From Bacteroidota bacterium (GTDB lineage Bacteria; Bacteroidota; Ignavibacteria; Kryptoniales; JAKASW01): a DNA stretch of 64,000 nucleotides. A program made the position numbers and the translations under genes. Location: positions 6,620 to 70,619 of the forward strand of contig JAJYRM010000005.1 in the NCBI GenBank assembly GCA_021794075.1, read 5' to 3'. Under the pieces are notes generated by a model. The model had not been told where the DNA came from. It saw nothing but the letters and a program-made list of their open reading frames with translations, and ran no database searches. Shown here piece after piece: positions 13,037 through 25,010 of the stretch (positions are counted from its first letter, which is position 1; every line of letters starts with the position of its first letter).

Positions 13037-13729
13037 CTACCAGGCCGATACTACTTTTCCGTATAGAACAAGCTTCCCTGTCACGTGCATACTGTTTTCC
13101 AATATGACCCCGTCCGGACCAATCATGGGAGAGTGACAATAGTAGCATGTCTGAAGGGTTATGCCCTTCCCGTTATGCGTCGCATCGTTAGGAGGAAGAC
13201 CGTGACAGCTTCCGCAAGAGTCCTGGCTCGAGTTAACGACGTTCCATGTCGGTGAAGAGTTGTTCCCGCCCTTGAAGTTTCCGTGGCAGTAAGTGTTGGA
13301 ACACTTCAGAGTCTTCGCGTTGAACGAAGGTTGAGGCGTTACCGTGGCGAGGGTGCTGTCATAGAATCGTGTACCCGGTGTATTCGTCTCCGTCATCGCG
13401 ACACCCGAGAAAGTCACGAGAGTCGCGGACGATATGCCGCCCGGATGAATTCCGGGACCAATTGAGGTGGGCACAATGTGACAGGTCGAGCATTCCACCG
13501 TCGAGGCGAACGCGCTCCCGTTTAGATGCACCTGGTGGGCTCCCACGAAAGGAGATGCGGTGCTGGTGTCACCCGCCGCGTCAGGAGGAGGGGCCGGGTT
13601 CATCACGCTTCCGTGGCACGAACTGCAATTCGCCGTCGCAAGGACGCCTGTGTTTTGAAGTTTGCTGCACGATGCCAGCGTCAGTCCTGCAGCAATTATG
13701 AATACTAATCCAAATCGTGTTTTCATCAT
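13037..13729 (-). CDS. Lipoprotein c-type cytochrome (4 CXXCH + 1 CX4CH)
   Basis: I took the start at ATG 13729 (MMKTRFGLVFIIAAGLTLASCS, lipobox LASC). Haem motifs are CSSCH, CSTCH, CSNTYCH, CGSCH and CYYCH. The unit CSNTYCHG...W...CGSCHGLPP resembles the Geobacter CxxxxCH...CXXCH repeat family (TIGR01904, recalled from memory). The start overlaps the upstream stop as TAATG. Confidence 0.85.
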   Translation of the reverse strand: MMKTRFGLVFIIAAGLTLASCSKLQNTGVLATANCSSCHGSVMNPAPPPDAAGDTSTASPFVGAHQVHLNGSAFASTVECSTCHIVPTSIGPGIHPGGISSATLVTFSGVAMTETNTPGTRFYDSTLATVTPQPSFNAKTLKCSNTYCHGNFKGGNNSSPTWNVVNSSQDSCGSCHGLPPNDATHNGKGITLQTCYYCHSPMIGPDGVILENSMHVTGKLVLYGKVVSAW

Positions 13730-14991
13730 TATCTCCCCGGATTGCTCCCATGACAGTAACCGCAAAAGCCGATGCCCGGTTGACCGCCCGGATGGGCGTT
13801 AGGATCGGTATGACACACATAACAAACAGCACCGGGGTCAGTATGCCAGTTCCCATTGACATCATGCATGTACATCGGCGGATGTGTCCTCGGATTGTCA
13901 CCCTGGACTCCATCGGGATCGCTGTGGCATGTAACGCAAACCGGATCGCCACCCTGTATGTCATGACACGCCGCGCAGCTCTCTATATCTCTCCTCGCAT
14001 AGATGGCGTGTCGTCCCCCGCCGGTTCCGACACCATTCGTAACGAAATCGCCGCCGAAGTGCCACACCGGCTCTATCATAGCGCCATTAGCTTCCGAATT
14101 ATGGCATTTCACGCAGAAGTTACGCTCGTCGTGGCATGTATAGCACGTGCTCTCGCGTCCGCTCGCCATTATCCCGTGCGTATAACGGAAATCGGGTGGG
14201 TGAACTTTCTGGGCTGTCGTATTCTTATTGCTGGGCAGCGGAGAAAGAGACGGCGTGAAAGGTACGTATGGCTGACCGGGGGTTAGATCGACAGCAAGGT
14301 TTGCCGCATCGTGGCACTCCTGGCAGCTCGCCTCCGTGTGGCATGACTTGCAGCTATTCTGCGGTCCGGCCATACCCACCAACTGCTGATGGGTCTTGAG
14401 GAAGTTAGGCTGCTGATGTGATTCAGGCACAAGCTTCACCAGATCCTTATGACATTCTTCGCAAGCTCCAGGAGCGGCTGTTATCGGGTGATCCACTTTC
14501 TTAGCGGTGAAATTCGTCTCGCCCTGGCCGTGGCAAGTCATGCACACTTGCATCTTCGGAAGCCCCTTGTTCGGGGCGTTCTCGGCATACGTCACTTTCG
14601 AAATACCTTGATGGCAAGTCTCGCATTTGAGTTTCAGCGAATCTGTGTGCTGGGCATGCGAGAAGCTTACAGGGCTGGGTATCAACGCGAGCTTCCGGTA
14701 AGTCGTCGTGTCCGTCGAAGTATGGCAGAAAGTACATTTCGTCGATGACTGATCATGGCACATGAAACATGTAGACATCGACGGAAGGAGATCTTGTTTA
14801 ATGCTGGCGCTTGTCTTGACATTAGTATGACAATCAGTACACGAAGCGCCAACGTCATTGATATGCTTGCTATGAGAAAACTTTATGAGCGATGAATTGT
14901 CGACCGGCGGAGCCTTCTTGCTCGCAAACAGGGTTGAAATGGACAGAAGCGCTACGATACCGACAATCCCGAAGATTCTAGTCTTTTTCAT
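13729..14991 (-). CDS. Secreted multihaem c-type cytochrome (14 CXXCH)
   Basis: Start at ATG 14991 (MKKTRIFGIVGIVALLSISTLFA), preceded by GGAGG 5 nt upstream. I counted 14 CXXCH motifs and no CXXCK. The track ORF begins 5 codons earlier at TTG. Confidence 0.9.
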   Translation of the reverse strand: MKKTRIFGIVGIVALLSISTLFASKKAPPVDNSSLIKFSHSKHINDVGASCTDCHTNVKTSASIKQDLLPSMSTCFMCHDQSSTKCTFCHTSTDTTTYRKLALIPSPVSFSHAQHTDSLKLKCETCHQGISKVTYAENAPNKGLPKMQVCMTCHGQGETNFTAKKVDHPITAAPGACEECHKDLVKLVPESHQQPNFLKTHQQLVGMAGPQNSCKSCHTEASCQECHDAANLAVDLTPGQPYVPFTPSLSPLPSNKNTTAQKVHPPDFRYTHGIMASGRESTCYTCHDERNFCVKCHNSEANGAMIEPVWHFGGDFVTNGVGTGGGRHAIYARRDIESCAACHDIQGGDPVCVTCHSDPDGVQGDNPRTHPPMYMHDVNGNWHTDPGAVCYVCHTDPNAHPGGQPGIGFCGYCHGSNPGR

Positions 14992-15002
14992 TTGCGCCTC
15001 CG

Positions 15003-16481
15003 TCAATTGCCGCTAAAATTCTTGAAGAAATAGTAATTCACCTGCAGATATCCCCTTAGATCATTTTTGAACACGGGATCTTGATAGTACTGTCCCTGCA
15101 GCGTTATCGCCAGAAGCTTTAACGGACGGTAAGTTACACCGAGCGCTCCGTTATAGAGACGATTTGCCGAAGTAAGCTGTTGAAGGACCTTGTAATCCGT
15201 CGCGGAGGCCGAAGCTATCAAGACGAATCTCTGATTCATGAACGGATATATTACCTGCGCGTTCACGCCGTTCAGATTGCCGGCGAACCCATCGTTATGT
15301 GAGAAACTTAGGGTGAAAAGATATATGTTGGTGCCGACAGTAAATTGATTTGAATTGGCGCCCGTGTAAAAGATTCTGTCATACGAACCGAACGCGCTAA
15401 TATCCTGCGTGAAGAGATAGCTTGCTCCCAGGTCAAGTTCGTCGGTCCCACTGTGATCAAACACAGAAAAAATAGAGTTGTATGGAAGATTTGACGTTCG
15501 ATGATAGTACCCGACATTCGCCGAGAAAGAGGCGAAGGGGGAATATCGGAACGACACTATAGTTCTGTCTATGTCGTAGAGATTCAGGTCATAATCAAGA
15601 CGAAAGTACCCCGATAGGTTGTCGGTAAAGTAAGAAAGATCTCCGGATACGAACCGGTTGGCAATGGCGTCAGGGCTAATGAGAATGCTGTCCTGGGCCC
15701 CAGGGGTGTTGAACGATTCAGACAACCGGTAAGCATAGTAACTTGGCGGCTTGAAGTTTTTGTTAACGTAGGCGCCTCCAATCCGAAAGTTATCGAATGG
15801 AGAATAGTAAGCCTCACCCCCGTAGAGCATGTTATCTTTCAGGTCGGTGTTCAGCTCGATTCTTTCATTCATCGGTGGAAGCGCGCCTCCAAAAGCGAAG
15901 AGAGAGATCTTATCGTCAAAGAGCTTTGCACCGGCGCTTAGTCCGTCAAACGACGACACCCCAACTCTCGAGAAAACCGGCTGCCTGCCGAGTTTCAAGT
16001 CAAAGATTTTTGCAATGTTCCTCGCCTCGAAGTATAGGTTTGCGGCACGAAGGAGCGGGTCGTTCGGCAGTTGAGTCATGAAATCGTTAGTAGCCAGAAG
16101 ATAAGTATGCAGCTGATAATTGCCTGAACCGAAATTCAGCTGCATCGCTTCAAACCCGCGCAGGCTCAACTTGGCATTGTTGGAAGTATCATACTGTTGA
16201 TACGAATAGAACGTAGTCATGAATCTTCCGCTTACCATTTGAGCACGCGCGTTCCTTACGCCGAACGGGTTCGCGAGGATAAGGAAGACTGCGATAAGTA
16301 ATCCCGGAAGTATTGTCGGGAGAAAGAATCGAGCGGGGAGCGCCCTTTCAGGCGGCCCCGCGCTGGGCCAGACTCGTCGTACGGGTCCAGCCTTATCTTT
16401 TCTGTTTCGAAATCTGCAGTTGATATACGGATGCTTCCGTGCGCTGCATCTTTCTGACGCTATTTCCGGGATACCTTTCAC
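15003..16481 (-). CDS. Predicted outer-membrane beta-barrel protein (porin-like) of the cytochrome operon
   Basis: GTG 16481 (preceded by AAGGAAGG) is the only canonical start that retains the hydrophobic signal segment LPGLLIAVFLILA, with predicted cleavage at ARA/Q. The mature protein is ~410 aa of alternating aromatic/aliphatic strand patterns with Gly/Asn/Asp turns, and has an aromatic C-terminus (YLQVNYYFFKNFSGN). It has no haem motif. Confidence 0.7.
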   Translation of the reverse strand: MKGIPEIASERCSARKHPYINCRFRNRKDKAGPVRRVWPSAGPPERALPARFFLPTILPGLLIAVFLILANPFGVRNARAQMVSGRFMTTFYSYQQYDTSNNAKLSLRGFEAMQLNFGSGNYQLHTYLLATNDFMTQLPNDPLLRAANLYFEARNIAKIFDLKLGRQPVFSRVGVSSFDGLSAGAKLFDDKISLFAFGGALPPMNERIELNTDLKDNMLYGGEAYYSPFDNFRIGGAYVNKNFKPPSYYAYRLSESFNTPGAQDSILISPDAIANRFVSGDLSYFTDNLSGYFRLDYDLNLYDIDRTIVSFRYSPFASFSANVGYYHRTSNLPYNSIFSVFDHSGTDELDLGASYLFTQDISAFGSYDRIFYTGANSNQFTVGTNIYLFTLSFSHNDGFAGNLNGVNAQVIYPFMNQRFVLIASASATDYKVLQQLTSANRLYNGALGVTYRPLKLLAITLQGQYYQDPVFKNDLRGYLQVNYYFFKNFSGN

Positions 16482-16536: not shown

Positions 16537-17088
16537 TTACTGCTGAGGAACTGGGTGAGCTATCTTAGCCCACATAGTTTTGAAGTCGAATCCCTTGAAG
16601 GTCGGGCTCTTCTTGTTATGGCAGGTTTCGCAGAATTTCTCCGCGCTGCCGTCTTTAACCGAGAGGAGCGTAAGACCGTGGGCGACAGCTTCTTTCTCGT
16701 TCTTCATAATGTCCATCTTCATATAGTCCTTGCCGGGGCCGTGGCACGTTTCGCACTGCACGCCGTCTTCTTTGCTGAATCTCGGACCGAGCTGAGAAGC
16801 GGGAGCGTTGTACGCTGTTTCATGGCACTGCACGCACTCAGGTGCATCGGCAGGGCTACCCTTTATTCCTCTCGCTTCGGCGATCTTCTTAGCTTCCGGG
16901 GTCAAGAGGGTTTTATAAGCCTGAGAGTGCTTGCTCGCTTCCCATTTCTGGAATTGCTCGCCACTCTTCGGGGTTCTGTGGCACATGGCGCATACCTTCA
17001 CTCCGACGTACTGGTGGCTGGGTTCAGCGGCCAGCGAAACGGCAGAGGTCAGGGCAAGCGCCATAACCACTAGTGTTAGTGTTTTCAT
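16537..17088 (-). CDS. Secreted tetrahaem c-type cytochrome (cytochrome c554-like family)
   Basis: Start at ATG 17088 (MKTLTLVVMALALTSAVSLAA), preceded by GGAGG. Haem motifs are CAMCH, CVQCH and CETCH x2. The N-terminal pattern CAMCH...W..SKHSQAY is typical of the c554-type multihaem family (PF13435, recalled). Confidence 0.85.
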   Translation of the reverse strand: MKTLTLVVMALALTSAVSLAAEPSHQYVGVKVCAMCHRTPKSGEQFQKWEASKHSQAYKTLLTPEAKKIAEARGIKGSPADAPECVQCHETAYNAPASQLGPRFSKEDGVQCETCHGPGKDYMKMDIMKNEKEAVAHGLTLLSVKDGSAEKFCETCHNKKSPTFKGFDFKTMWAKIAHPVPQQ

Positions 17089-17184: not shown

Positions 17185-17523
17185 TCAGTTTTTCTTTCCG
17201 CACGCATCGCAATATGTTCTTGTCAAGGCTTTTTCTAACTCCTTCTTGCCGATGAAGGCGGAGCACCGTTCGCAATAACCATAGGTCCCGCTTTTCAACC
17301 TTTGAAGGGCCAACTCAAGCTCCTTGAATTCCGTTTCCATCTTCCTGGCGAGCTCACATCTGTAATCGGGCTCAACTTCGCATCTCTTGTGCTGAATGTC
17401 GCAAACGCTGCATATGTACGCTTCCCCGCTTTCCAAATCGACAAGGTCATCGGGTTTCATATACATCATTTGGAGAACCACGCTAATCCTGTTCCTGATC
17501 AAATTGTTAAAGTGCTCCGTCAT
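17185..17523 (-). CDS. DksA/TraR-family C4 zinc-finger protein (paralogue A)
   Basis: The C-terminal YGYCERCSAFIGKKELEKALTRTYCDAC is CxxC-x17-CxxC, the DksA/TraR spacing. I took the start at ATG 17523 (MTEHFNNL), 8 nt after the upstream stop. The track ORF extends 16 codons further and would overlap the cytochrome gene. Confidence 0.75.
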   Translation of the reverse strand: MTEHFNNLIRNRISVVLQMMYMKPDDLVDLESGEAYICSVCDIQHKRCEVEPDYRCELARKMETEFKELELALQRLKSGTYGYCERCSAFIGKKELEKALTRTYCDACGKKN

Positions 17524-17530
17524 CTGTCGA

Positions 17531-20239
17531 TCAGCTCTCCCTGTCTTTATCTTTGTCTTTCTCATCGTCATCGCTCCCTTTGGGATTTTCTCCGTTCTCT
17601 ACAACGATGTCTCCTGCCTTTTCTTCTTCGCTTAGTATCCTGTCTAATTCCACCGGATGCTCTTCTTCCATCTCCTCTTCGGTGATCGTTCCGAACAGCC
17701 AGGAAAGGTTCATTGGATAGACATCAGGGTTAAAGATTGAGAAGTACATATGCCACACGAGAATCGCGAGGGTCGCTAGAATCGCTTCATAATAATGCAC
17801 GAGTGTCGCTACATCGATCCCGAGAAGAGTGAATCTCCCTACAGTGAAGGTATTGAACCAGAGAAGAAGTCCGGTAAGGACCATCACGGTTGTCCCCCAG
17901 ATGAGCGCCCAGTATTCCGCTTTCTCGATGTAGCTGAACCTATCGAATCGCGGTCGCTTATCGGAAATTCCGAGGTAATACTTCACCGCGTCCCTGACGT
18001 CGGCCGCGTCTTTCAAATTCGGGAGCATGTCTTTGATAAACTGCCTCCCGCGTTGAGTGAAGATTACATAGTACACGTGGTATAACGCCGTCACAATCAT
18101 GATGACTGCGCTGATGCGGTGGATCAGACCACGCAACTCAAACACTCTCTCGCCTCCGCCTCCGATTTCACGGATTAGTCTCACCCACCATGAATCCGGG
18201 AATTTCAACATAAACCCCGTGAAGACAAGAAGAGTGAAGCTCACGAGCAGCCCCCAATGCTGCAGACGTTCGGCCTTGGTCATCCTCACATAGAGTTTCT
18301 TTCCAACATGCTTAAGTTCGGCGGACGGATCTCTTCTGAGTTTCAGTTTCGCCTTCGACTTCTTCACGAAATCGAATACGTTGTGTATCAGCATCATACC
18401 GATAACGCCGAAGATGAGCACCGCGTAGATCTGTGAAATCCAGAAGAGCAGCGGCTGATTGGTCGGCGTGGGAGCGATGTGTACAGGGAACGAAGCAAAT
18501 TTAGCATCGGCTCCAGGATGACACTTACCACATGTCTTGGCAATATTCGCTTTGTTAATTGGAGAATTAGGATCGGACGAAGGTAGTATTTCATGAGCGC
18601 CGTGGCAGCTCGCGCAATTGGCAACGGTCGTCATTCCCCCCTGTTTCGCAAGTCCGTGATAGCTGTCGAGATAACTTCCCACTGCGTGAGCGGGAAGGCC
18701 GTATCTGCTGGTGAGCCTGACTGAACCGTGGCAATGCGAACATGTCTGGACGATGTTGTTCTTGGAAACCGTCGATTGAGGATTGTTCGGAGCAAGTATC
18801 TGATGGTCGCCGTGGCAACTGGTGCACACGGGAGCGCTGTTGTTGCCGTTTTCCATGGCCTTGCCGTGAATCCCGGCCATGTAACGCTTCTCGATCCCAG
18901 AGTGACACCCGCTTTGACCGCAAGTAGCAGGGATATTATTCCTGAATATTCTGGATTTCGGATTTCCCGCGGGAAGCATACTGTGGGCGCCGTGACAATC
19001 GCTGCACGTGGCAGCCTTTAGATTTCCCTTTTCGAGCGCGACGAGATGGACGCTATATTTAATGCTCTCAAGGAACGGACGCGACACACCCACCATCTTA
19101 AAGACAGTCTTGTTATCCAAATGGCAACGCAGACATGTCTTGGGCTCATTCTGCCTGCTCACCGGCGATTCGGGATTGCTGACGGAAACAACGTTGTGAT
19201 CGTTATGACAATCCGTGCAAACCGGAGCAACCGCGAGCCTTTCCTTGTAAGCTTTTCCATGGGAAGACTCCAGGTAGTCAGCCGCTTGCTTCTGGTGACA
19301 TTTGGCACAAGTCGATACAATATTCAACCTGTTGACTGGCGAAGCTGTGTCGCTGGCCGCAAGCATGGAGTGCGAACCATGACAGTCCACACAGGTCGCC
19401 CCCTTGCCGGTTTTCCTGAGCGACTCAACATGAATGCTGTGTTCGTAGGAGTCGACAAATGACGTCATAGGCTTGCCGTTGGCCGCCTTCATCCCCTGGA
19501 AGAGCTTCGGATTAGAGTGACACTTGTAGCAAGCTTCCGAAACATTCTTCTTGGATACATGGGGATCGTGAGCGCTATGGCATGAAACACAAGTCACCGT
19601 GCCTTCGTCAAAAGCCTTCTTATGCACGCTATGGTTAAGATCAGAGGCAACACCTTTGTGGCACTGCATGCAAAGCGAGTCGATCTTCACTCCCTGCAAC
19701 GAAGCGACAGTCTTCACGTCATGAGCCTTGCCATGGCACGTCACGCACGTGAACGGCTCCTTGCCGACGGTTGCCTTCGCATGCGCCGACTGGAGAAACA
19801 CCTTCTTTGAAGCGTGACACGATATACACTTTGCGTCTACTACGATTTTGCTGGCAGGCTTGATATCATGCGTGCCGTGACAGCTCCAGCATTTCACCGA
19901 AGAATGCGCCAAATGGTAATTCGCGCCCTTGGGCGCTAGAAGATTGACGCTGTGACACTGGTCGCAGTCAACGTTTGGAGAGGTCTGTTTGTGAGGCACA
20001 TCATCGGCGCTGAATCCTTGATGACAGTCCGTGCAAGCGACCCCCGCGTCTCCGTGTACCGAGGAACTGAAGATGGCAGGATTGACGTACAGACTGATTG
20101 TCTTCCCATCCTTCTGCATTGTCAAAGTGGAATCGGAGTGACACGCAAGGCAATCGTCGTTTGAGCTGGCAAAAATAGGTCGTGCGAAAAGCGAATTTAA
20201 AAGAATAATGGTAAGTAATGAGAGTAATCTAATTTTCAT
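17531..20239 (-). CDS. Multihaem c-type cytochrome (18 CXXCH + 1 CX4CH) fused to an FdnI/HydC-type cytochrome b membrane domain (CbcL-like quinol oxidoreductase candidate)
   Basis: Signal peptide MKIRLLSLLTIILLNSLFARPIFA. I counted 19 haem motifs, including five tandem paired-CXXCH modules. The C-terminal ~300 aa has 5 hydrophobic helices with ERLQHWGLLVSFTLLVFTG, LIHRISAV..LYHVYY and LVHYYEAI..VWHMY, the His pattern of PF01292-type dihaem b. Confidence 0.85.
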   Translation of the reverse strand: MKIRLLSLLTIILLNSLFARPIFASSNDDCLACHSDSTLTMQKDGKTISLYVNPAIFSSSVHGDAGVACTDCHQGFSADDVPHKQTSPNVDCDQCHSVNLLAPKGANYHLAHSSVKCWSCHGTHDIKPASKIVVDAKCISCHASKKVFLQSAHAKATVGKEPFTCVTCHGKAHDVKTVASLQGVKIDSLCMQCHKGVASDLNHSVHKKAFDEGTVTCVSCHSAHDPHVSKKNVSEACYKCHSNPKLFQGMKAANGKPMTSFVDSYEHSIHVESLRKTGKGATCVDCHGSHSMLAASDTASPVNRLNIVSTCAKCHQKQAADYLESSHGKAYKERLAVAPVCTDCHNDHNVVSVSNPESPVSRQNEPKTCLRCHLDNKTVFKMVGVSRPFLESIKYSVHLVALEKGNLKAATCSDCHGAHSMLPAGNPKSRIFRNNIPATCGQSGCHSGIEKRYMAGIHGKAMENGNNSAPVCTSCHGDHQILAPNNPQSTVSKNNIVQTCSHCHGSVRLTSRYGLPAHAVGSYLDSYHGLAKQGGMTTVANCASCHGAHEILPSSDPNSPINKANIAKTCGKCHPGADAKFASFPVHIAPTPTNQPLLFWISQIYAVLIFGVIGMMLIHNVFDFVKKSKAKLKLRRDPSAELKHVGKKLYVRMTKAERLQHWGLLVSFTLLVFTGFMLKFPDSWWVRLIREIGGGGERVFELRGLIHRISAVIMIVTALYHVYYVIFTQRGRQFIKDMLPNLKDAADVRDAVKYYLGISDKRPRFDRFSYIEKAEYWALIWGTTVMVLTGLLLWFNTFTVGRFTLLGIDVATLVHYYEAILATLAILVWHMYFSIFNPDVYPMNLSWLFGTITEEEMEEEHPVELDRILSEEEKAGDIVVENGENPKGSDDDEKDKDKDRES

Positions 20240-20595
20240 CTGGCGGTGTCACTCTTTTCGTGTATCGCGGTCTGACATGACGGACATAATCTAGCCGTGA
20301 GATTTGATTCTAGAACTTCGGAGGGGATCTCATGCCTGCATATAACACATTGCCCGTAGATACCTTTCTCTATTCGCCGAAGAGCAAAGGCGATCTCGTT
20401 TAGCTCAGGGCAGTCAAACCTCGCTGCTTCCTGGAGAACGAGTTCCTTTCCCCCATCGACAGAGACTCCATGCTTTGCCAAGAGAATGTCGCGAAGCTTC
20501 TGAACCACAAGCTTTTCGTATTTGGAAAGTTCTTCTGATTTCATTTTAGAATGTCTGTGTTCAAGCTGTGTGCCGATTGCTTCAAAAAGAGGCAT
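20236..20595 (-). CDS. DksA/TraR-family C4 zinc-finger protein (paralogue B)
   Basis: YGQCVICRHEIPSEVLESNLTARLCPSC is CxxC-x17-CxxC. The stop overlaps the start of the 902-aa cytochrome as ATGA (20236-20239). The start is ATG 20595; the track ORF begins one codon earlier at TTG. Confidence 0.75.
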   Translation of the reverse strand: MPLFEAIGTQLEHRHSKMKSEELSKYEKLVVQKLRDILLAKHGVSVDGGKELVLQEAARFDCPELNEIAFALRRIEKGIYGQCVICRHEIPSEVLESNLTARLCPSCQTAIHEKSDTAR

Positions 20596-20600
20596 CAAAG

Positions 20601-20619: not shown

Positions 20620-20952
20620 ATTGGCCCAATTCAACAATCGAGGAAGTCAGGCTTCAAAATTCTGTGGTTTTATGGCCCATCGTGAGCAAAGTTTCCACAC
20701 CCGTAAAAAGGAGGCTGCCGCCAGGCAACTTTTGAAATCGTCTGGCAGCAGCAGGAGGAGGAAAGAGGAGATCTTTCTCTTGAAACAAAGAAAATTTTTG
20801 GGCTGCCGAGATATGGCAGTGCCTTCCCCTGAGCGAGTAGCATTTAAATAAATCAGCAGCCCAAAACCATTTTGCTCTATAGCAAGCTCGCAGTAACCAC
20901 GTTGCAACTACCGCATGAGCAACGTCGGCACGCTGGGAAGAATAAAACCTAT

Positions 20953-21351
20953 TCAGGCAGGTTGGTCTTCCAACCCATTATCCATGGGCTGAATGGACCG
21001 ACGAGTCTTCTCAAGCGTCTGCTTTATAGTGTTGCTCAATTGCCTGAGGTTCAGCGGGCGATCCTTCACCAGAACAGCCTCAGTTTCCACATCCGCATAA
21101 TCCTCATCGCAACACTGCACAATAAGCACAGCAGGTTTTGTCCTTTTCAAATTGTCAAACCATTTTCTCGACCGACTCGGATTTCTTGTCGGTGCAAGTA
21201 TAATGAGAGCAAGGTCGCCTGAATCGGAACTGTCAGATAAAACTCGTCTCGTCTCATAACCTTCTTTGTCGAGGAATTTGTCAAGCAACTCGTACATAGC
21301 CTCTTCATCCGTGACTATTCCGACAGGTACCTTTTGTTCTTCTTTTCTCAT
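20953..21351 (-). CDS. Stand-alone receiver-like (pseudo-receiver) protein
   Basis: Receiver-fold pattern is present (VGIVTDEE / DLALIILAP / PAVLIVQCC / VLVKDRP). The position of the phospho-acceptor Asp reads IILAP, with no Asp. The family assignment is by eye only. Confidence 0.45.
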   Translation of the reverse strand: MRKEEQKVPVGIVTDEEAMYELLDKFLDKEGYETRRVLSDSSDSGDLALIILAPTRNPSRSRKWFDNLKRTKPAVLIVQCCDEDYADVETEAVLVKDRPLNLRQLSNTIKQTLEKTRRSIQPMDNGLEDQPA

Positions 21352-21365
21352 TATGCATACTATTA

Positions 21366-21381
21366 GTCAATCATCGTGCCG
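21366..21381 (-). promoter_or_regulatory. Sigma54-like -24/-12 element CGGCACG-ATGA-TTGAC (imperfect)
   Basis: The minus strand reads CGGCACGATGATTGAC. The GG-N10 spacing is correct, but the -12 dinucleotide is GA rather than GC and a C replaces the T 5' of the GG. It ends 14 nt before ATG 21351, which would give a near-leaderless mRNA. Confidence 0.3.
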
Positions 21382-21831: not shown

Positions 21832-23700
21832 ATGTTCAGCACACTTAGAGCAAAGGTAGCGGCGGGCTTTACAGTCCTCGTGATAATAAACGTCATCGTG
21901 AGCGTATGGTCGATCTACAATTTCGACCAGCTTACGCAGGCGATCACAAAGATGATCAAACAGAACTACCAGAACGTCATAGCGACCCAGAACATGCTTA
22001 TGGACCTCGAACGCGACAATAGCGCGCAGCTCGTGATGCTAAACGGTTACGTCGATCTAGGATACAAACAGTTCCAGGATAACCACAGCGACTTCTTCAT
22101 TTGGTACCAGCAGGCTGTGAACTCGAACGTGTCCCAGCGGGGCATGCAGATCTTAAATAATATTAAGAAAAACTACGCCGAGTTCGCCGCTGCCACCGAT
22201 TCATTGCGTGATGTCCTGATGACCCACGGCCAGGTGTATGCGCAGGATTTCCACTATCGGAACGTTCTACCTCTCTCAAACCAGATCAAGGACGGCTGCT
22301 TCCAACTCCTGGACATGAATCACAACGCGATGGTGGCCACGGACACGAAAGCGAGCGACATTTCCAACCAAGCCACCGTAGCAGTACTCGGGGCGGCTCT
22401 CCTGGCTATTGTCCTGAGCATCGTCGCAAGCTGGCAATTTTCACAATATATTCTGGAGCCCGCCGAGAAACTCACCGATACCGTTAGAAAACTCGGAAGG
22501 GGTTACCTCGACGTGCGGGCCACCATCAACTCCAACGACGAGATCGGAGAACTCGCCCGCGAATTCAATCGTATGGCGGAACGTCTTAAGAAATACGACG
22601 AGCTAAATATCGAGAAGCTCATTTCCGAAAAGCGGAAATCCGAAGCTATCGTCGGGACAATTTCAGATCCAATTGTGGTTGCGGACCGTGACGGCAAGAT
22701 CGTATTGATGAACCAACTTGCCGAAAACATTTTCGACGTGTCAGAGGAGGCTTCAATTGGAGAGCAGTTCCAGAGTGTCATCAAGAACACCGACCTCAAC
22801 AAGTACGTAAAGCGTTACCTTGACGGCGAAAACTCAGTGAACATCCCACCTTATTTCCAGCTCCGCTTCAACGGCGAAGACAGGTACTTCAGGATAAAAT
22901 TGAATTCGTCAACGGACGCGGCGGGCAAGGTCGCCGGCGTCATACTCATTCTCCAGGATGTGACCCAGTTCAAAGAACTTGACAAGATGAAATCGGATTT
23001 CATGGCGAGAGTCTCGCATGAATTCAGGACCCCGCTTACTTCGATTAACATGACGCTCGATATTTTGAAAGACGCACACATAGGTCATGTCAACAAAAGG
23101 CAACACGAACTCCTCGTTGCCGCAAAGCAAGACGCTGAGAGATTGACTAAGCTCGTTCGGGAATTACTGGAGCTTTCCCGCCTCGAGTCAGGAAAGATCC
23201 AGCTCAAGGAAGACAAGATAGACACAAAGTCGCTGATCGATTTTTCAGTTCAGCCTGTACTCCTCCAATTCACCGATAAGAGCGTGCAACTCGTAGTAAA
23301 CGCGGACGACACGATCCCGGAATTTGTCGCCGATTTTCAGCAGCTCTCTTGGGTGGTTTCAAACCTTGTGACAAACGCGCTCAGGTTCACGGACCCCGGC
23401 GGCAGTGTCACCGTTGATGCCACGAGCGACGGAGAAGATCTCATCGTTGCCGTCAGAGACACAGGTTGCGGCATAGAACCTGCCGAGATGGAAAAAGTAT
23501 TCGACAAATTCGTACAGGTCCAGGACTCCTCCAACCCTTCGCCCGGCTCGGTCGGCCTCGGTCTTTCGATAGCTAAGGAGATTGTCGAGCTTTATGGCGG
23601 TAGAATATGGGTCGACAGCAGGGTTGGCTCCGGAAGCGTGTTCACGTTCTCCATTCCCATCAAAAAGCGTATGTATCACGAAAGAGCAATTTCCGCATGA
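21832..23700 (+). CDS. Sensor histidine kinase (TM, four-helix-bundle-type periplasmic sensor, TM, HAMP, PAS, HisKA, HATPase)
   Basis: HAMP NDEIGELAREFNRMAERL, PAS segment ISDPIVVADRDGKIVLMNQLAENIF, H-box VSHEFRTPLTSI, G-box GSVGLGLSIAKEIV. Confidence 0.9.
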   Translation: MFSTLRAKVAAGFTVLVIINVIVSVWSIYNFDQLTQAITKMIKQNYQNVIATQNMLMDLERDNSAQLVMLNGYVDLGYKQFQDNHSDFFIWYQQAVNSNVSQRGMQILNNIKKNYAEFAAATDSLRDVLMTHGQVYAQDFHYRNVLPLSNQIKDGCFQLLDMNHNAMVATDTKASDISNQATVAVLGAALLAIVLSIVASWQFSQYILEPAEKLTDTVRKLGRGYLDVRATINSNDEIGELAREFNRMAERLKKYDELNIEKLISEKRKSEAIVGTISDPIVVADRDGKIVLMNQLAENIFDVSEEASIGEQFQSVIKNTDLNKYVKRYLDGENSVNIPPYFQLRFNGEDRYFRIKLNSSTDAAGKVAGVILILQDVTQFKELDKMKSDFMARVSHEFRTPLTSINMTLDILKDAHIGHVNKRQHELLVAAKQDAERLTKLVRELLELSRLESGKIQLKEDKIDTKSLIDFSVQPVLLQFTDKSVQLVVNADDTIPEFVADFQQLSWVVSNLVTNALRFTDPGGSVTVDATSDGEDLIVAVRDTGCGIEPAEMEKVFDKFVQVQDSSNPSPGSVGLGLSIAKEIVELYGGRIWVDSRVGSGSVFTFSIPIKKRMYHERAISA

Positions 23701-25010
23701 AAGCCAACGTCCTTCTCGTAGATGACGAGCAAAATATACTTCGTACCGTAACAATCTGTCTCGAGTCCATCGGGCTCGAGGTGACCGCAACTCCAAAACC
23801 TGAGGAAGCGTTAAAGCTCGCCTCCGAGAGACATTTCGATATTGCTTTCTTCGACCTTAAGATGTATCCGGTGGACGGCCTTGAACTCCTCGCCCACATG
23901 AAGAGGTATTCGCCCGATACGATAGTTGTCATCGTGACTGCTCACGGATCTGTGGATACTGCCGTGCAGGCTATCAAACAGGGCGCGTATGACTATCTTC
24001 AGAAGCCTTTCGATTTTCAGGAACTCCAGCACTTCGCCCAGAAAGTGTATGACCATTTCCTTCTTCAGAAGCAGCTGAAAGACCTGAAAGAGGAGCTTCA
24101 TAAATACCAGGCGGCAGAAGAGATAATAACCGCGGACCCTCAGGTGCTTTCCCTTCTCAATCTCGCGAGAGAGGTGGCCGATACCAACATCAGCGTGTTG
24201 ATTGAAGGAGAGAGCGGAACGGGAAAAGAACTACTCGCGAAGTACATTCACAAGTCGAGCGCTCGTGCAGACGCACCATTTGTTACCGTCAACTGTGCCG
24301 CTCTCTCCGAAAGCCTTCTCGAGAGCGAACTATTCGGCCACGTCAAGGGCTCTTTTACAGGCGCGGTCAGAGACAGACAAGGGAGGTTTGAGATGGCCGA
24401 TACTGGGACGGTTTTCCTCGACGAGATAACCGAGATCCCGACCACGACGCAGGCCAAGCTGCTTCGCTTCCTGCAAGGGCGGGAATTCGAGCGCGTCGGC
24501 GACTCTCAGACCATGAAGGTCGATGTCAGATTCATTGCGGCGACAAACCGCGATCTAAAAGCTTCCCTCTCATCCGGAACGTTCAGGGATGACCTGTATT
24601 ACAGAATAAACGGCGTGACCATAAAACTCCCTCCCCTTAGAGAACGCCCGGACGACATTCCACTTCTCATCAAGCACTTCATACAAAAGTTCGGCGGGGA
24701 GAATCCTCCTGAGATTGGGCCCGACGCCTTCGGAATACTGGCCAATTACCGTTGGCCTGGTAATATCCGGCAGTTGGAGAATGTGATAGAGCGTTCGGTT
24801 CTTCTGGCTCACGGAAAGAAAATAGAGGTACACCATCTTCCGGAAGAGATCCGGCAGCTTGAGGGTAAGCGCCTCGTTTCGCTCGAAGAGCTGGAGAAGG
24901 AACATATCTCAAGGGTAATTCAGCAAACCGCTACTGTCGATGAGGCCTCGCACGTGCTCGGGATAGACCCGGCGACTCTCTGGCGAAAACGGAAGAAGTA
25001 CGGGCTTTAA
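23697..25010 (+). CDS. Sigma54-dependent response regulator (NtrC family: REC + AAA+ + Fis HTH)
   Basis: Start ATG 23697 (MKANVLLVDDEQN) is in an ATGA overlap with the kinase stop. Motifs are Walker A GESGTGKE, GAFTGA variant KGSFTGAV, and C-terminal HTH ASHVLGIDPATLWRKRKKYGL. Confidence 0.9.
   Translation: MKANVLLVDDEQNILRTVTICLESIGLEVTATPKPEEALKLASERHFDIAFFDLKMYPVDGLELLAHMKRYSPDTIVVIVTAHGSVDTAVQAIKQGAYDYLQKPFDFQELQHFAQKVYDHFLLQKQLKDLKEELHKYQAAEEIITADPQVLSLLNLAREVADTNISVLIEGESGTGKELLAKYIHKSSARADAPFVTVNCAALSESLLESELFGHVKGSFTGAVRDRQGRFEMADTGTVFLDEITEIPTTTQAKLLRFLQGREFERVGDSQTMKVDVRFIAATNRDLKASLSSGTFRDDLYYRINGVTIKLPPLRERPDDIPLLIKHFIQKFGGENPPEIGPDAFGILANYRWPGNIRQLENVIERSVLLAHGKKIEVHHLPEEIRQLEGKRLVSLEELEKEHISRVIQQTATVDEASHVLGIDPATLWRKRKKYGL

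What the first reader, a model, noticed from the sequence alone, without database searches (positions are those of the whole stretch)
17185..20598. Two divergent DksA/TraR-type zinc-finger paralogues bracket the giant cytochrome gene
The ORFs at 20236-20595 and 17185-17523 both end in CxxC-x17-CxxC (CVIC...CPSC and CERC...CDAC), preceded by a shared A-L-x-R-(I/L)-x2-G-x-YG-x-C context. That is the DksA/TraR C4 finger spacing. One overlaps the cytochrome start as ATGA, and the other begins 8 nt after its stop. I do not see the DxxDxA coiled-coil tip motif of canonical RNAP-binding DksA. Cytoplasmic zinc-finger proteins co-translated with a 19-haem membrane cytochrome are not part of any electron-transfer operon I know. 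Possible roles are an autoregulatory transcription factor pair, a redox/metal-sensing switch, or a dedicated assembly/targeting factor.
Basis: partly seen in the sequence, partly recalled or inferred. Interest (0 to 1): 0.65.

Follow-up and report, generated by a model that had tools for sequence, protein, structure and literature searches.

The report
DksA-like zinc-finger genes in cytochrome operon
Two small, strongly conserved DksA-fold metal-binding proteins are built into an electron-export cytochrome operon of Kryptoniota bacteria; they are probably operon-embedded regulators rather than classical DksA, and one carries an undescribed second four-cysteine site at its coiled-coil tip.

Summary
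Two small minus-strand genes flank the 902-aa, 19-haem cytochrome c/b fusion. Both end in CxxC-x17-CxxC, both are under strong purifying selection, and both fold like DksA.

- The upstream gene most likely starts at 20544 (102 aa).
- The downstream gene probably starts upstream of 17523.
- The downstream protein has four further invariant cysteines (CxxC-x6-C-x7-C) exactly where DksA has its DxxDxA tip.
- The two are only distant superfamily relatives, not sister paralogues.

In more than 30 Kryptoniota loci the upstream gene always directly precedes the cytochrome. The downstream gene always directly precedes the periplasmic-cytochrome/porin/outer-cytochrome module, even where extra genes separate it from the giant cytochrome. 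So each one leads a module.

Homologous clusters in other phyla lack both genes, and one has an Rrf2 regulator at the same position. The 8-Cys type also occurs in Ignavibacteria-like genomes, outside cytochrome operons.

Best reading: operon-embedded, possibly redox- or metal-gated regulators that associate with RNA polymerase. This is not proven. It is a new variant of a known kind.

The parts
21367..21380 (-). Sigma-54-type -24/-12 motif GGCACGATGATTGA, 29 nt upstream of the orf132 ATG
   Evidence: One of only two GGCAC-N5-TTG[AC] sites on either strand of the 64-kb window. The same site is present at the same place in most Kryptoniota loci.
20953..21351 (-). orf132: conserved small protein of unknown function, apparently its own sigma-54 transcription unit
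   Evidence: Present upstream of ZnFup in all complete loci. No Pfam or PDB match.
20714..20729 (-). Terminator-like hairpin plus T-run between orf132 and the ZnFup promoter motif
   Evidence: A similar hairpin is visible in L025 upstream sequence.
20561..20574 (-). Sigma-54-type -24/-12 motif GGCACACAGCTTGA, 30 nt upstream of the ZnFup ATG at 20544
   Evidence: Exact motif lies 29-32 nt upstream of the ATG in 19 of 28 loci, within otherwise unconserved intergenic DNA.
20236..20544 (-). ZnFup: 102-aa DksA-fold protein with one C4 site (CVIC-x17-CPSC). Its stop overlaps the cytochrome start (ATGA).
17531..20239 (-). 902-aa inner-membrane fusion of a 19-haem cytochrome c with cytochrome b (Ni_hydr_CYTB), CbcL-like
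17185..17571 (-). ZnFdn: 112-128-aa DksA-fold protein with 8 invariant Cys (CxxC-x6-C-x7-C at the coiled-coil tip plus CxxC-x17-CxxC). Start is uncertain: 17571, 17565 or 17523.
16537..17088 (-). 183-aa tetrahaem periplasmic cytochrome (c554-like), first gene of the outer-membrane module
15003..16481 (-). 492-aa protein with no family match, at the porin position of a porin-cytochrome module
   Evidence: The porin role is inferred from position only.
13729..15006 (-). 425-aa cytochrome with 14 CxxCH sites
13037..13765 (-). About 230-242-aa multihaem cytochrome, last gene of the cluster
21832..23700 (+). Divergently transcribed HAMP/PAS histidine kinase
23697..25010 (+). Sigma-54-dependent response regulator (enhancer-binding protein, 437 aa)
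   Evidence: Response_reg, Sigma54_activat, HTH_8.

Best explanation
The two ORFs are real, expressed cytoplasmic metal-binding proteins with the DksA fold: a helical hairpin plus a C4 zinc ribbon. They are built into a sigma-54-dependent extracellular-electron-transfer operon of Kryptoniota.

ZnFup is the first gene of the operon, with a very short leader. It is translationally coupled to the inner-membrane 19-haem cytochrome c/b. ZnFdn is the leader gene of the periplasmic-cytochrome/porin/outer-cytochrome module.

Most likely they act as operon-embedded regulators that associate with RNA polymerase, the only activity known for this fold. Being made beside the transcribing polymerase, they would feed back on or assist expression of this long operon. 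They cannot act like canonical DksA. ZnFup has a short, unconserved hairpin tip. ZnFdn replaces the DxxDxA tip with an invariant second Cys4 metal site, which probably makes its activity depend on metal or thiol redox state.

Shown: gene reality, fold, cysteine pattern, operon position, conservation.
Inferred: RNA polymerase binding, redox gating, feedback.
For: - Fold and homology: profile hits to solved DksA proteins. The top 7-8 Foldseek hits for both models are DksA or DksA2 with prob 1.00 and TM up to 0.67-0.70. NCBIfam DksA_like gives E around 1e-9. PF01258 matches 15/36 and 15/37 orthologues.
- Selection: dN/dS about 0.07-0.1.
- Position: the order orf132-ZnFup-cytochrome-ZnFdn-cyt-porin-cyt is kept in 24 genome loci and 9 metagenome loci. 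When genes are inserted, ZnFup stays with the cytochrome and ZnFdn stays with the outer module.
- Sigma-54 context: a conserved GGCAC-N5-TTGA motif lies 29-32 nt before the ATG, next to a divergent kinase and sigma-54 activator.
- Regulator analogy: a 43%-identical cluster (L033) has an Rrf2-family regulator directly upstream of the cytochrome and no zinc-finger genes.
- Second metal site: the 8 Cys are the only invariant columns across relatives of 21-45% identity.
- Literature: DksA Cys4 sites act as thiol redox sensors (PMC4850274), and DksA/TraR members are RNA polymerase binders (PMC4010833).
Against: - No DxxDxA. PMC4010833 treats that motif as the indicator of DksA-like function.
- ZnFup's best solved match is Atu0905 (2kq9). 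This belongs to the short family members that include RSP0166, which did not complement a dksA mutant and may not bind RNA polymerase (PMC4010833).
- ZnFup's hairpin is about 23 residues per helix and its tip is its least conserved part.
- ZnFdn lacks a C-terminal helix, and its tip is modelled with pLDDT < 50.
- No binding partner was or could be tested here.
- Strict gene adjacency would also fit a protein partner within the operon.
Confidence: 0.42

Rival explanations
1. They are regulators that act on the dedicated two-component system rather than on RNA polymerase. In this reading they work as an anti-activator or co-activator of the sigma-54 enhancer-binding protein, or as a redox input to the kinase. 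This would resemble PspA-PspF-type feedback, where the first gene of a sigma-54 operon controls its own activator.
For: ZnFup is the first gene behind a conserved sigma-54-type motif, with the kinase and activator divergently encoded. The whole block orf132/kinase/activator/ZnFup co-occurs in every locus. The invariant cysteines suit a redox input.
Against: No member of the DksA/TraR superfamily is known to bind an enhancer-binding protein (own knowledge). Cytochrome homologues in Calditrichota-like and other loci keep the kinase and sigma-54 activator without any zinc-finger gene. 8-Cys relatives occur away from any sigma-54 system.
Confidence: 0.15
2. They are cytoplasmic assembly, targeting or quality-control factors for the cytochromes they precede. 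For example, they could hold the nascent apo-protein or couple translation to export.
For: The ATGA overlap, or a 0-3 nt spacing, with the cytochrome gene is kept in all loci. Each zinc-finger gene stays with 'its' structural module after rearrangements.
Against: The same cytochrome and porin-cytochrome modules in other phyla work without such genes. The 8-Cys family sits beside malic enzyme or 2-oxoacid:ferredoxin oxidoreductase genes in other lineages, with no cytochrome partner. No chaperone role is known for this fold.
Confidence: 0.13
3. They are RNA-binding zinc-ribbon proteins that act on the operon mRNA, affecting translational coupling or stability of the leaderless or short-leader transcript.
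For: There is a very short predicted leader. The ZnFdn N-terminus is lysine/arginine-rich. A weak NCBIfam hit to a Zn-ribbon RNA-binding model has E 0.018.
Against: The hit is not significant. The fold matches DksA over the whole length, not an RNA-binding ribbon. No conserved RNA element was identified.
Confidence: 0.07
4. The ORFs are not genes. They would be chance ORFs or remnants in the intergenic regions of a cytochrome operon.
For: They are small, the window copies have no Pfam hit above threshold, and most sources give them no name.
Against: Orthologues of 50-87% identity exist in more than 30 loci with invariant cysteines. Non-synonymous change is far below saturated synonymous change. 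The ZnFup model is confident, with pLDDT 90.9.
Confidence: 0.01

Closest known systems
Short DksA/TraR-family proteins of unknown function (Agrobacterium Atu0905, PDB 2KQ9; Rhodobacter sphaeroides RSP0166)
   Same: They are about 100-112 aa, with a short helical hairpin plus a CxxC-x17-CxxC ribbon. This is the best solved-structure match of the ZnFup profile (E 6.7e-8). RSP0166 is induced anaerobically and shows no canonical DksA activity (PMC4010833).
   Different: Atu0905 still carries a DxxDxA in a loop and RSP0166 a DxxExA variant, whereas ZnFup has none. Those genes are not reported inside respiratory operons. ZnFup has a predicted C-terminal helix.
Canonical DksA (E. coli DksA, PDB 1TJL/5VSW/7KHI; P. 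aeruginosa DksA2, 4IJJ)
   Same: Same overall fold, the same C4 spacing, and the same A-L-x-R-I-x2-G-x-YG-x-C lead-in to the finger.
   Different: There is no DxxDxA tip and the coiled coils are shorter. ZnFdn has a Cys4 insertion of about 18-23 residues at the tip and no C-terminal helix. Both are far below the curated equivalog cut-offs (about 37 bits against 105).
Redox-sensing by the DksA zinc finger (Salmonella DksA thiol switch)
   Same: A Cys4 metal site in a DksA-fold protein is used as an oxidative or nitrosative stress sensor (PMC4850274, PMC6294903). This is a plausible model for how 4- and 8-Cys versions could report redox state.
   Different: That sensor is the global DksA with an intact tip. 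Here the proteins are operon-specific, and ZnFdn has a second site at the tip. No redox chemistry has been shown.
Regulator genes embedded in electron-transfer cytochrome clusters (Rrf2 upstream of the homologous cytochrome in L033; sigma-54 control of Geobacter cbcBA by BccR, from own knowledge)
   Same: A small cytoplasmic regulator sits directly upstream of a CbcL-like cytochrome. The sigma-54 activator association with these cytochromes recurs across phyla.
   Different: Rrf2 is a DNA-binding winged-helix protein. DksA-fold proteins do not bind DNA.

Membership tests
DksA/TraR superfamily (Pfam PF01258 zf-dskA_traR) | C4 zinc ribbon with CxxC-x17-CxxC spacing | tested here: met
   CVIC-x17-CPSC and CERC-x17-CDAC. 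All four Cys are invariant in 37 and 36 orthologues.
DksA/TraR superfamily (Pfam PF01258 zf-dskA_traR) | Score above the Pfam gathering threshold (24.9 bits) | tested here: not met
   Window ZnFup scores 14.0 bits (E 0.051) and ZnFdn has no hit. 15/37 and 15/36 orthologues match at E <= 0.01, with best values 8.8e-5 and 1.6e-5.
DksA/TraR superfamily (Pfam PF01258 zf-dskA_traR) | Significant sequence or fold similarity to solved DksA-family structures over hairpin plus ribbon | tested here: met
   Profile searches: 1tjl 1.2e-6, 2kq9 3.5e-6 and 6.7e-8. Foldseek top hits are 4ijj, 7khi, 1tjl, 2kq9 and 6ptg, prob 1.00.
Functional DksA (RNA polymerase secondary-channel factor acting with ppGpp) | DxxDxA motif at the coiled-coil tip | tested here: not met
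   Absent from both. The ZnFup tip is variable. ZnFdn has (D/E)-L-V-D-L-E followed by a Cys4 insertion.
Functional DksA (RNA polymerase secondary-channel factor acting with ppGpp) | Long coiled coil (residues 35-109 in E. coli) able to reach the active site | tested here: inconclusive
   Predicted helices are 23 and 28 residues in ZnFup (pLDDT 91) and 29 and 22 residues in ZnFdn (tip pLDDT < 50). They are shorter than in DksA, and their reach was not modelled.
Functional DksA (RNA polymerase secondary-channel factor acting with ppGpp) | C-terminal alpha-helix after the zinc ribbon | tested here: inconclusive
   ZnFup has a predicted helix at 88-100. ZnFdn ends 4 residues after the last Cys.
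Functional DksA (RNA polymerase secondary-channel factor acting with ppGpp) | Curated equivalog score (NF033459 cut-off 105; TIGR02420 cut-off 115.5) | tested here: not met
   Scores are 37.8 and 36.4 bits, and 28.0 and 26.6 bits.
Functional DksA (RNA polymerase secondary-channel factor acting with ppGpp) | Binding to RNA polymerase and an effect on transcription | not testable with these tools
   Needs biochemistry or complex modelling.
Sigma-54-dependent operon | -24 GG / -12 element with fixed spacing upstream of the first gene, plus a cognate enhancer-binding protein | tested here: inconclusive
   GGCAC-N5-TTGA lies 29-32 nt before the ATG in 19/28 loci and again before orf132. The activator gene is adjacent. 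The -12 element reads TTGA, not the canonical TTGC. No transcript data.
Porin-cytochrome extracellular electron-transfer cluster | Inner-membrane quinol-linked cytochrome, periplasmic multihaem cytochrome, outer-membrane beta-barrel and outer multihaem cytochrome in one cluster | tested here: inconclusive
   The cytochromes are confirmed. The 492-aa 'porin' has no family match, and its barrel nature was not tested.

The most novel reading that the evidence does not exclude
ZnFdn would represent an undescribed family of DksA-fold proteins, found in Kryptoniota, Ignavibacteria-like and other FCB lineages. In this family the DxxDxA tip is replaced by a redox-active metal centre (rubredoxin-like Fe(Cys)4 or an Fe-S cluster). 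The cell's redox or iron state would then be read directly at, or in, the RNA polymerase secondary channel. In Kryptoniota, one copy together with the tip-less ZnFup has been wired into the electron-export operon as an autoregulatory pair.
Probability: 0.12. Interest if true: 0.8.

Novelty: new variant of a known kind. Interest (0 to 1): 0.5.

Why it matters
How bacteria outside Geobacter and Shewanella control extracellular electron transfer is largely unknown, and Kryptoniota are uncultured. A pair of DksA-fold proteins hard-wired into a sigma-54 operon gives a concrete regulatory handle to test. One of them has a second, invariant Cys4 site where DksA normally contacts the polymerase active-site region. 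It also adds a structurally distinct branch to a family whose short members still have no assigned function. If the tip site is redox-active, it would link respiratory state directly to RNA polymerase.

Tried and rejected
- **Chance-ORF or artefact reading:** rejected on conservation and dN/dS.
- **Canonical DksA:** rejected because there is no DxxDxA and the scores are far below the equivalog cut-offs.
- **Recent tandem paralogues:** rejected because ZnFup scores lower against the ZnFdn profile than hundreds of unrelated DksA-family clusters do.
- **General association of DksA-like genes with CbcL-like cytochromes:** rejected. Six homologous loci from other lineages have none, even when scanned with both profiles and with a C4 regular expression.
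- **General association of the 8-Cys family with cytochromes:** rejected on four contexts.
- **Context scans of the distant 8-Cys family in metagenome contigs:** failed because the alignments had no stretch conserved enough.
- **The afdb50 fold library:** unavailable.
- **P0218 context:** came without DNA.
- **Literature searches:** nothing was found on Kryptoniota electron-transfer clusters or on DksA-like genes in cytochrome operons. The one DksA mention (PMC13194489) is only a list of mutated regulator families.
- **Consensus sigma-54 search (TGGCAC-N5-TTGCW, 2 mismatches):** not enriched in the window, 16 hits against 23 expected. Only the lineage-specific form GGCAC-N5-TTGA is informative.
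- **orf132:** gave no Pfam or PDB match.
Full report
**Anatomy**

The region is a minus-strand gene cluster. In order it contains:
- orf132 (21351-20953)
- ZnFup (ORF 20598-20236)
- a 902-aa cytochrome (20239-17531)
- ZnFdn (17571-17185)
- a tetrahaem c554-like cytochrome (17088-16537)
- a 492-aa protein with no family match, at the porin position (16481-15003)
- a cytochrome with 14 CxxCH sites (15006-13729)
- a smaller multihaem cytochrome (13765-13037)

The 902-aa protein has 18 CxxCH sites plus one longer-spaced site. It also has a C-terminal Ni_hydr_CYTB cytochrome b domain, so it is a CbcL-like inner-membrane cytochrome. A HAMP/PAS histidine kinase and a sigma-54-dependent response regulator are transcribed divergently (21832-25010).

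**Checking the observation**

The ZnFup stop overlaps the cytochrome ATG as ATGA. An ATG lies 8 nt after the cytochrome stop.

Both are genuine genes:
- The database holds 41 ZnFup and 48 ZnFdn homologues at roughly 50-87% identity. All named ones come from Candidatus Kryptoniota or 'Bacteroidetes bacterium' MAGs.
- The zinc-finger cysteines are invariant.
- ZnFup has dN/dS of about 0.07-0.1 in the least saturated pairs.
- ZnFdn shows 7% non-synonymous difference against saturated synonymous sites.

Three corrections are needed.

1. ZnFup start. About 30 of the 41 ZnFup homologues are 102 aa and begin at the Met equivalent to ATG 20544. The 17 upstream codons of the window ORF contain a conserved promoter-like element (see below). 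The gene is therefore 20544-20236.
2. ZnFdn start. The Met at 17523 is replaced by Leu or Gln in several orthologues, which are 122-130 aa long. The start is more likely 17571 or 17565, overlapping the cytochrome's 3' end.
3. A second cysteine cluster.

**Family assignment**

The evidence at Pfam and NCBIfam level is weak for the window copies:
- PF01258 is not reached (14 bits against 24.9 for ZnFup; no hit for ZnFdn).
- 15/37 and 15/36 orthologues do match PF01258 at E <= 0.01.
- NCBIfam DksA_like gives E 2e-9 and 5e-9, but far below the curated cut-offs.

The structural evidence is stronger:
- Family profiles hit solved DksA proteins. The ZnFup profile hits 2kq9 at 6.7e-8 and 1tjl at 0.0025. 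The ZnFdn profile hits 1tjl at 1.2e-6, 2kq9 at 3.5e-6 and DksA2 4ijj at 0.0012.
- The AlphaFold model of ZnFup is confident (pLDDT 90.9). It shows helices 3-25, 33-41 and 46-60, a ribbon, and helices 75-80 and 88-100.
- The ZnFdn model is moderate (pLDDT 69). It has confident helices 15-43 and 73-94 and a confident ribbon, but a low-confidence tip at 44-71.
- For both models the top seven or eight Foldseek hits in the PDB are DksA, DksA2, Atu0905 and Chlamydia DksA, with probability 1.00 and TM up to 0.67-0.70.

So both have the DksA fold.

They are homologous to each other (hhalign 96.5%, E 8e-10), and ZnFdn carries a 23-residue insertion at the hairpin tip. They are not close paralogues, though. 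ZnFup scores 29 bits against the ZnFdn profile. In the search of 1.84 billion cluster representatives, the 150th hit still scores 39 bits, and 690 proteins reach E <= 0.001.

**What distinguishes them from DksA**

Neither has DxxDxA. PMC4010833 describes this motif as essential and as the indicator of DksA-like function.
- In ZnFup the hairpin tip (residues about 22-40) is the least conserved part of the protein, while the ribbon region is almost invariant.
- In ZnFdn the tip is the most conserved part. It reads P-D-(D/E)-L-V-D-L-E-S-G-E-x-Y-I-C-x-x-C-D-x-x-x-K-R-C-E-x-E-P-x-Y-R-C-E.
- The first CxxC resembles a rubredoxin knuckle, but that PDB match is not significant (E about 0.6).

ZnFup's best solved relative, Atu0905 (2kq9), belongs to the short DksA/TraR proteins. 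[quoted passage not shown]

**A wider 8-Cys family**

The exhaustive search with the ZnFdn profile found about 20 further cluster representatives (E 2e-26 to 6e-8) that match over the full length. In an alignment of 24 such sequences, at 21-45% identity, the only invariant columns are the eight cysteines. A second metal site is therefore very likely.

Named members come from 'Bacteroidota bacterium' and 'Ignavibacteriales bacterium' MAGs. No Pfam or NCBIfam model covers the N-terminal Cys4, and only the C-terminal ribbon matches generic DksA/YteA/TraR models.

Their gene contexts are not cytochrome operons:
- In two Ignavibacteria-like lineages the gene lies between a DUF2279 gene and a malic enzyme/GGDEF block.
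- In one genome it overlaps the start of a 2-oxoacid:ferredoxin oxidoreductase gamma-subunit gene.
- A fourth context is unrelated to cytochromes.

**Conservation of the operon arrangement**

A genome scan found 24 loci in 23 species-level MAGs, all of them Kryptoniota. My ORF and phmmer maps of these loci show the same order in nearly all: kinase/activator (divergent), orf132, ZnFup, cytochrome, ZnFdn, tetrahaem cytochrome, porin-like, two cytochromes.

The rearranged loci are the informative ones:
- In L020, L023, L026 and L028 (and in the partial loci L008 and L012), three or four extra cytochrome genes lie between the giant cytochrome and ZnFdn. ZnFdn nevertheless remains immediately upstream of the tetrahaem/porin/cytochrome module.
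- In L011, two extra cytochrome genes lie between orf132 and ZnFup, and ZnFup remains attached to the giant cytochrome.
- Nine further metagenome loci all show orf132-ZnFup-cytochrome.
- Stop-start spacing between ZnFup and the cytochrome is -4 to +3 nt throughout.

'Bracketing' is thus incidental. Each small gene leads its own module.

**Outside Kryptoniota**

The giant cytochrome has homologues at 41-49% identity annotated as Chlorobi, Ignavibacteria, Calditrichaeota and Bacteroidota. Six such loci (L029-L034) contain no ORF matching either zinc-finger profile (best E 0.24). They also contain no small non-haem ORF with a C4 pattern.

Three of them keep an adjacent kinase plus sigma-54 activator. 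L033 has the same cluster of cytochrome, tetrahaem cytochrome, porin-like protein and further cytochromes. However, it has an Rrf2-family regulator gene directly upstream of the cytochrome and only 84 nt where ZnFdn would be.

The association is lineage-specific.

**Promoter context**

The sequence GGCAC-N5-TTG[AC] occurs only twice in the 64-kb window on either strand (as GGCAC-N5-TTGA). One site is at 20574-20561, 30 nt before the ZnFup ATG. The other is at 21380-21367, 29 nt before the orf132 ATG.

The same two sites are present in most Kryptoniota loci. The ZnFup site is exact, and 29-32 nt from the ATG, in 19 of 28 loci, while the surrounding intergenic sequence is not conserved. A terminator-like hairpin lies between orf132 and this site.

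With the adjacent sigma-54 activator, I read these as -24/-12 promoters. I note that the -12 element is TTGA rather than canonical TTGC. I also note that a canonical-consensus search is not enriched in the window. If this reading is right, ZnFup is the first gene of a sigma-54 operon with a leader of only a few nucleotides.

**Interpretation**

Shown here:
- Both are real, conserved DksA-fold proteins with one (ZnFup) and two (ZnFdn) Cys4 sites.
- They hold fixed positions in a probable sigma-54 electron-transfer operon.

Inferred:
- They act as regulators, most likely through RNA polymerase, since that is the only documented activity of the fold (PMC4010833).
- This activity may be gated by the redox or metal state of the cysteine sites, as in Salmonella DksA (PMC4850274).
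- The Rrf2 gene at the equivalent position in L033 supports a regulatory role by analogy.

Against canonical DksA action:
- The DxxDxA tip is missing from both.
- The hairpins are short.
- ZnFup's tip is variable.
- ZnFdn has no C-terminal helix.

Alternatives that I cannot exclude:
- Action on the sigma-54 activator or the kinase.
- A cytochrome-specific assembly role. This is disfavoured because the same modules exist without these genes elsewhere, and because 8-Cys relatives lack cytochrome partners.
- mRNA binding.

**Limits**

- Synonymous sites are saturated for most pairs.
- The ZnFdn tip model is unreliable.
- Contexts of distant 8-Cys relatives rest on four loci.
- No transcript or protein data are available.
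- The literature library returned nothing on this arrangement. That is absence of evidence within that library only.

Noticed in passing
window 20953-21351 (-) and 21367-21380 (-): orf132 is a conserved 120-138-aa protein with no Pfam or PDB match. It has its own copy of the GGCAC-N5-TTGA motif 29 nt upstream and is present in every complete Kryptoniota locus. It may be a third small partner in the system.
   Followed up: partly
L020, L023, L026, L028 (about 5.3-10 kb in locus coordinates); partial loci L008, L012, L039: A variant cluster type carries an extra module (about 233-aa and 343-aa multihaem proteins, a cytochrome b-like protein of about 300 aa, and a protein of about 662 aa) inserted between the giant cytochrome and ZnFdn.
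   Followed up: partly
L033 5556-5987: A 43%-identical cytochrome/porin-cytochrome cluster from another lineage has an Rrf2-family regulator directly upstream of the cytochrome, and a MarR gene downstream, instead of the zinc-finger genes.
   Followed up: partly
L030, L031, L034: Cytochrome c/b homologues in Calditrichaeota-like and other genomes are also preceded by a histidine kinase plus sigma-54 activator. Sigma-54 control of this cytochrome type therefore seems older than the zinc-finger genes.
   Followed up: no
L027 (second locus of MAG MFD03726.bin.1.238; its other locus is L017): One genome has two copies of the whole cluster. In L027 the cytochrome, ZnFdn and the tetrahaem cytochrome are split or truncated. 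This is either decay of a duplicate or long-read frameshift errors.
   Followed up: no
L035 8001-8471, L037 8001-8408, L036 8001-8372: Distant 8-Cys DksA-like genes sit in a conserved DUF2279 / X / malic enzyme / GGDEF neighbourhood, or overlap the start of a 2-oxoacid:ferredoxin oxidoreductase gamma-subunit gene. These are central redox-metabolism contexts.
   Followed up: partly
window 17531-17571: The acidic, low-complexity C-terminal tail of the cytochrome (…SDDDEKDKDKDRES) is encoded by the same DNA, in another frame, as the basic N-terminus of the longest ZnFdn reading (MTMRKTKIKTGR…).
   Followed up: no
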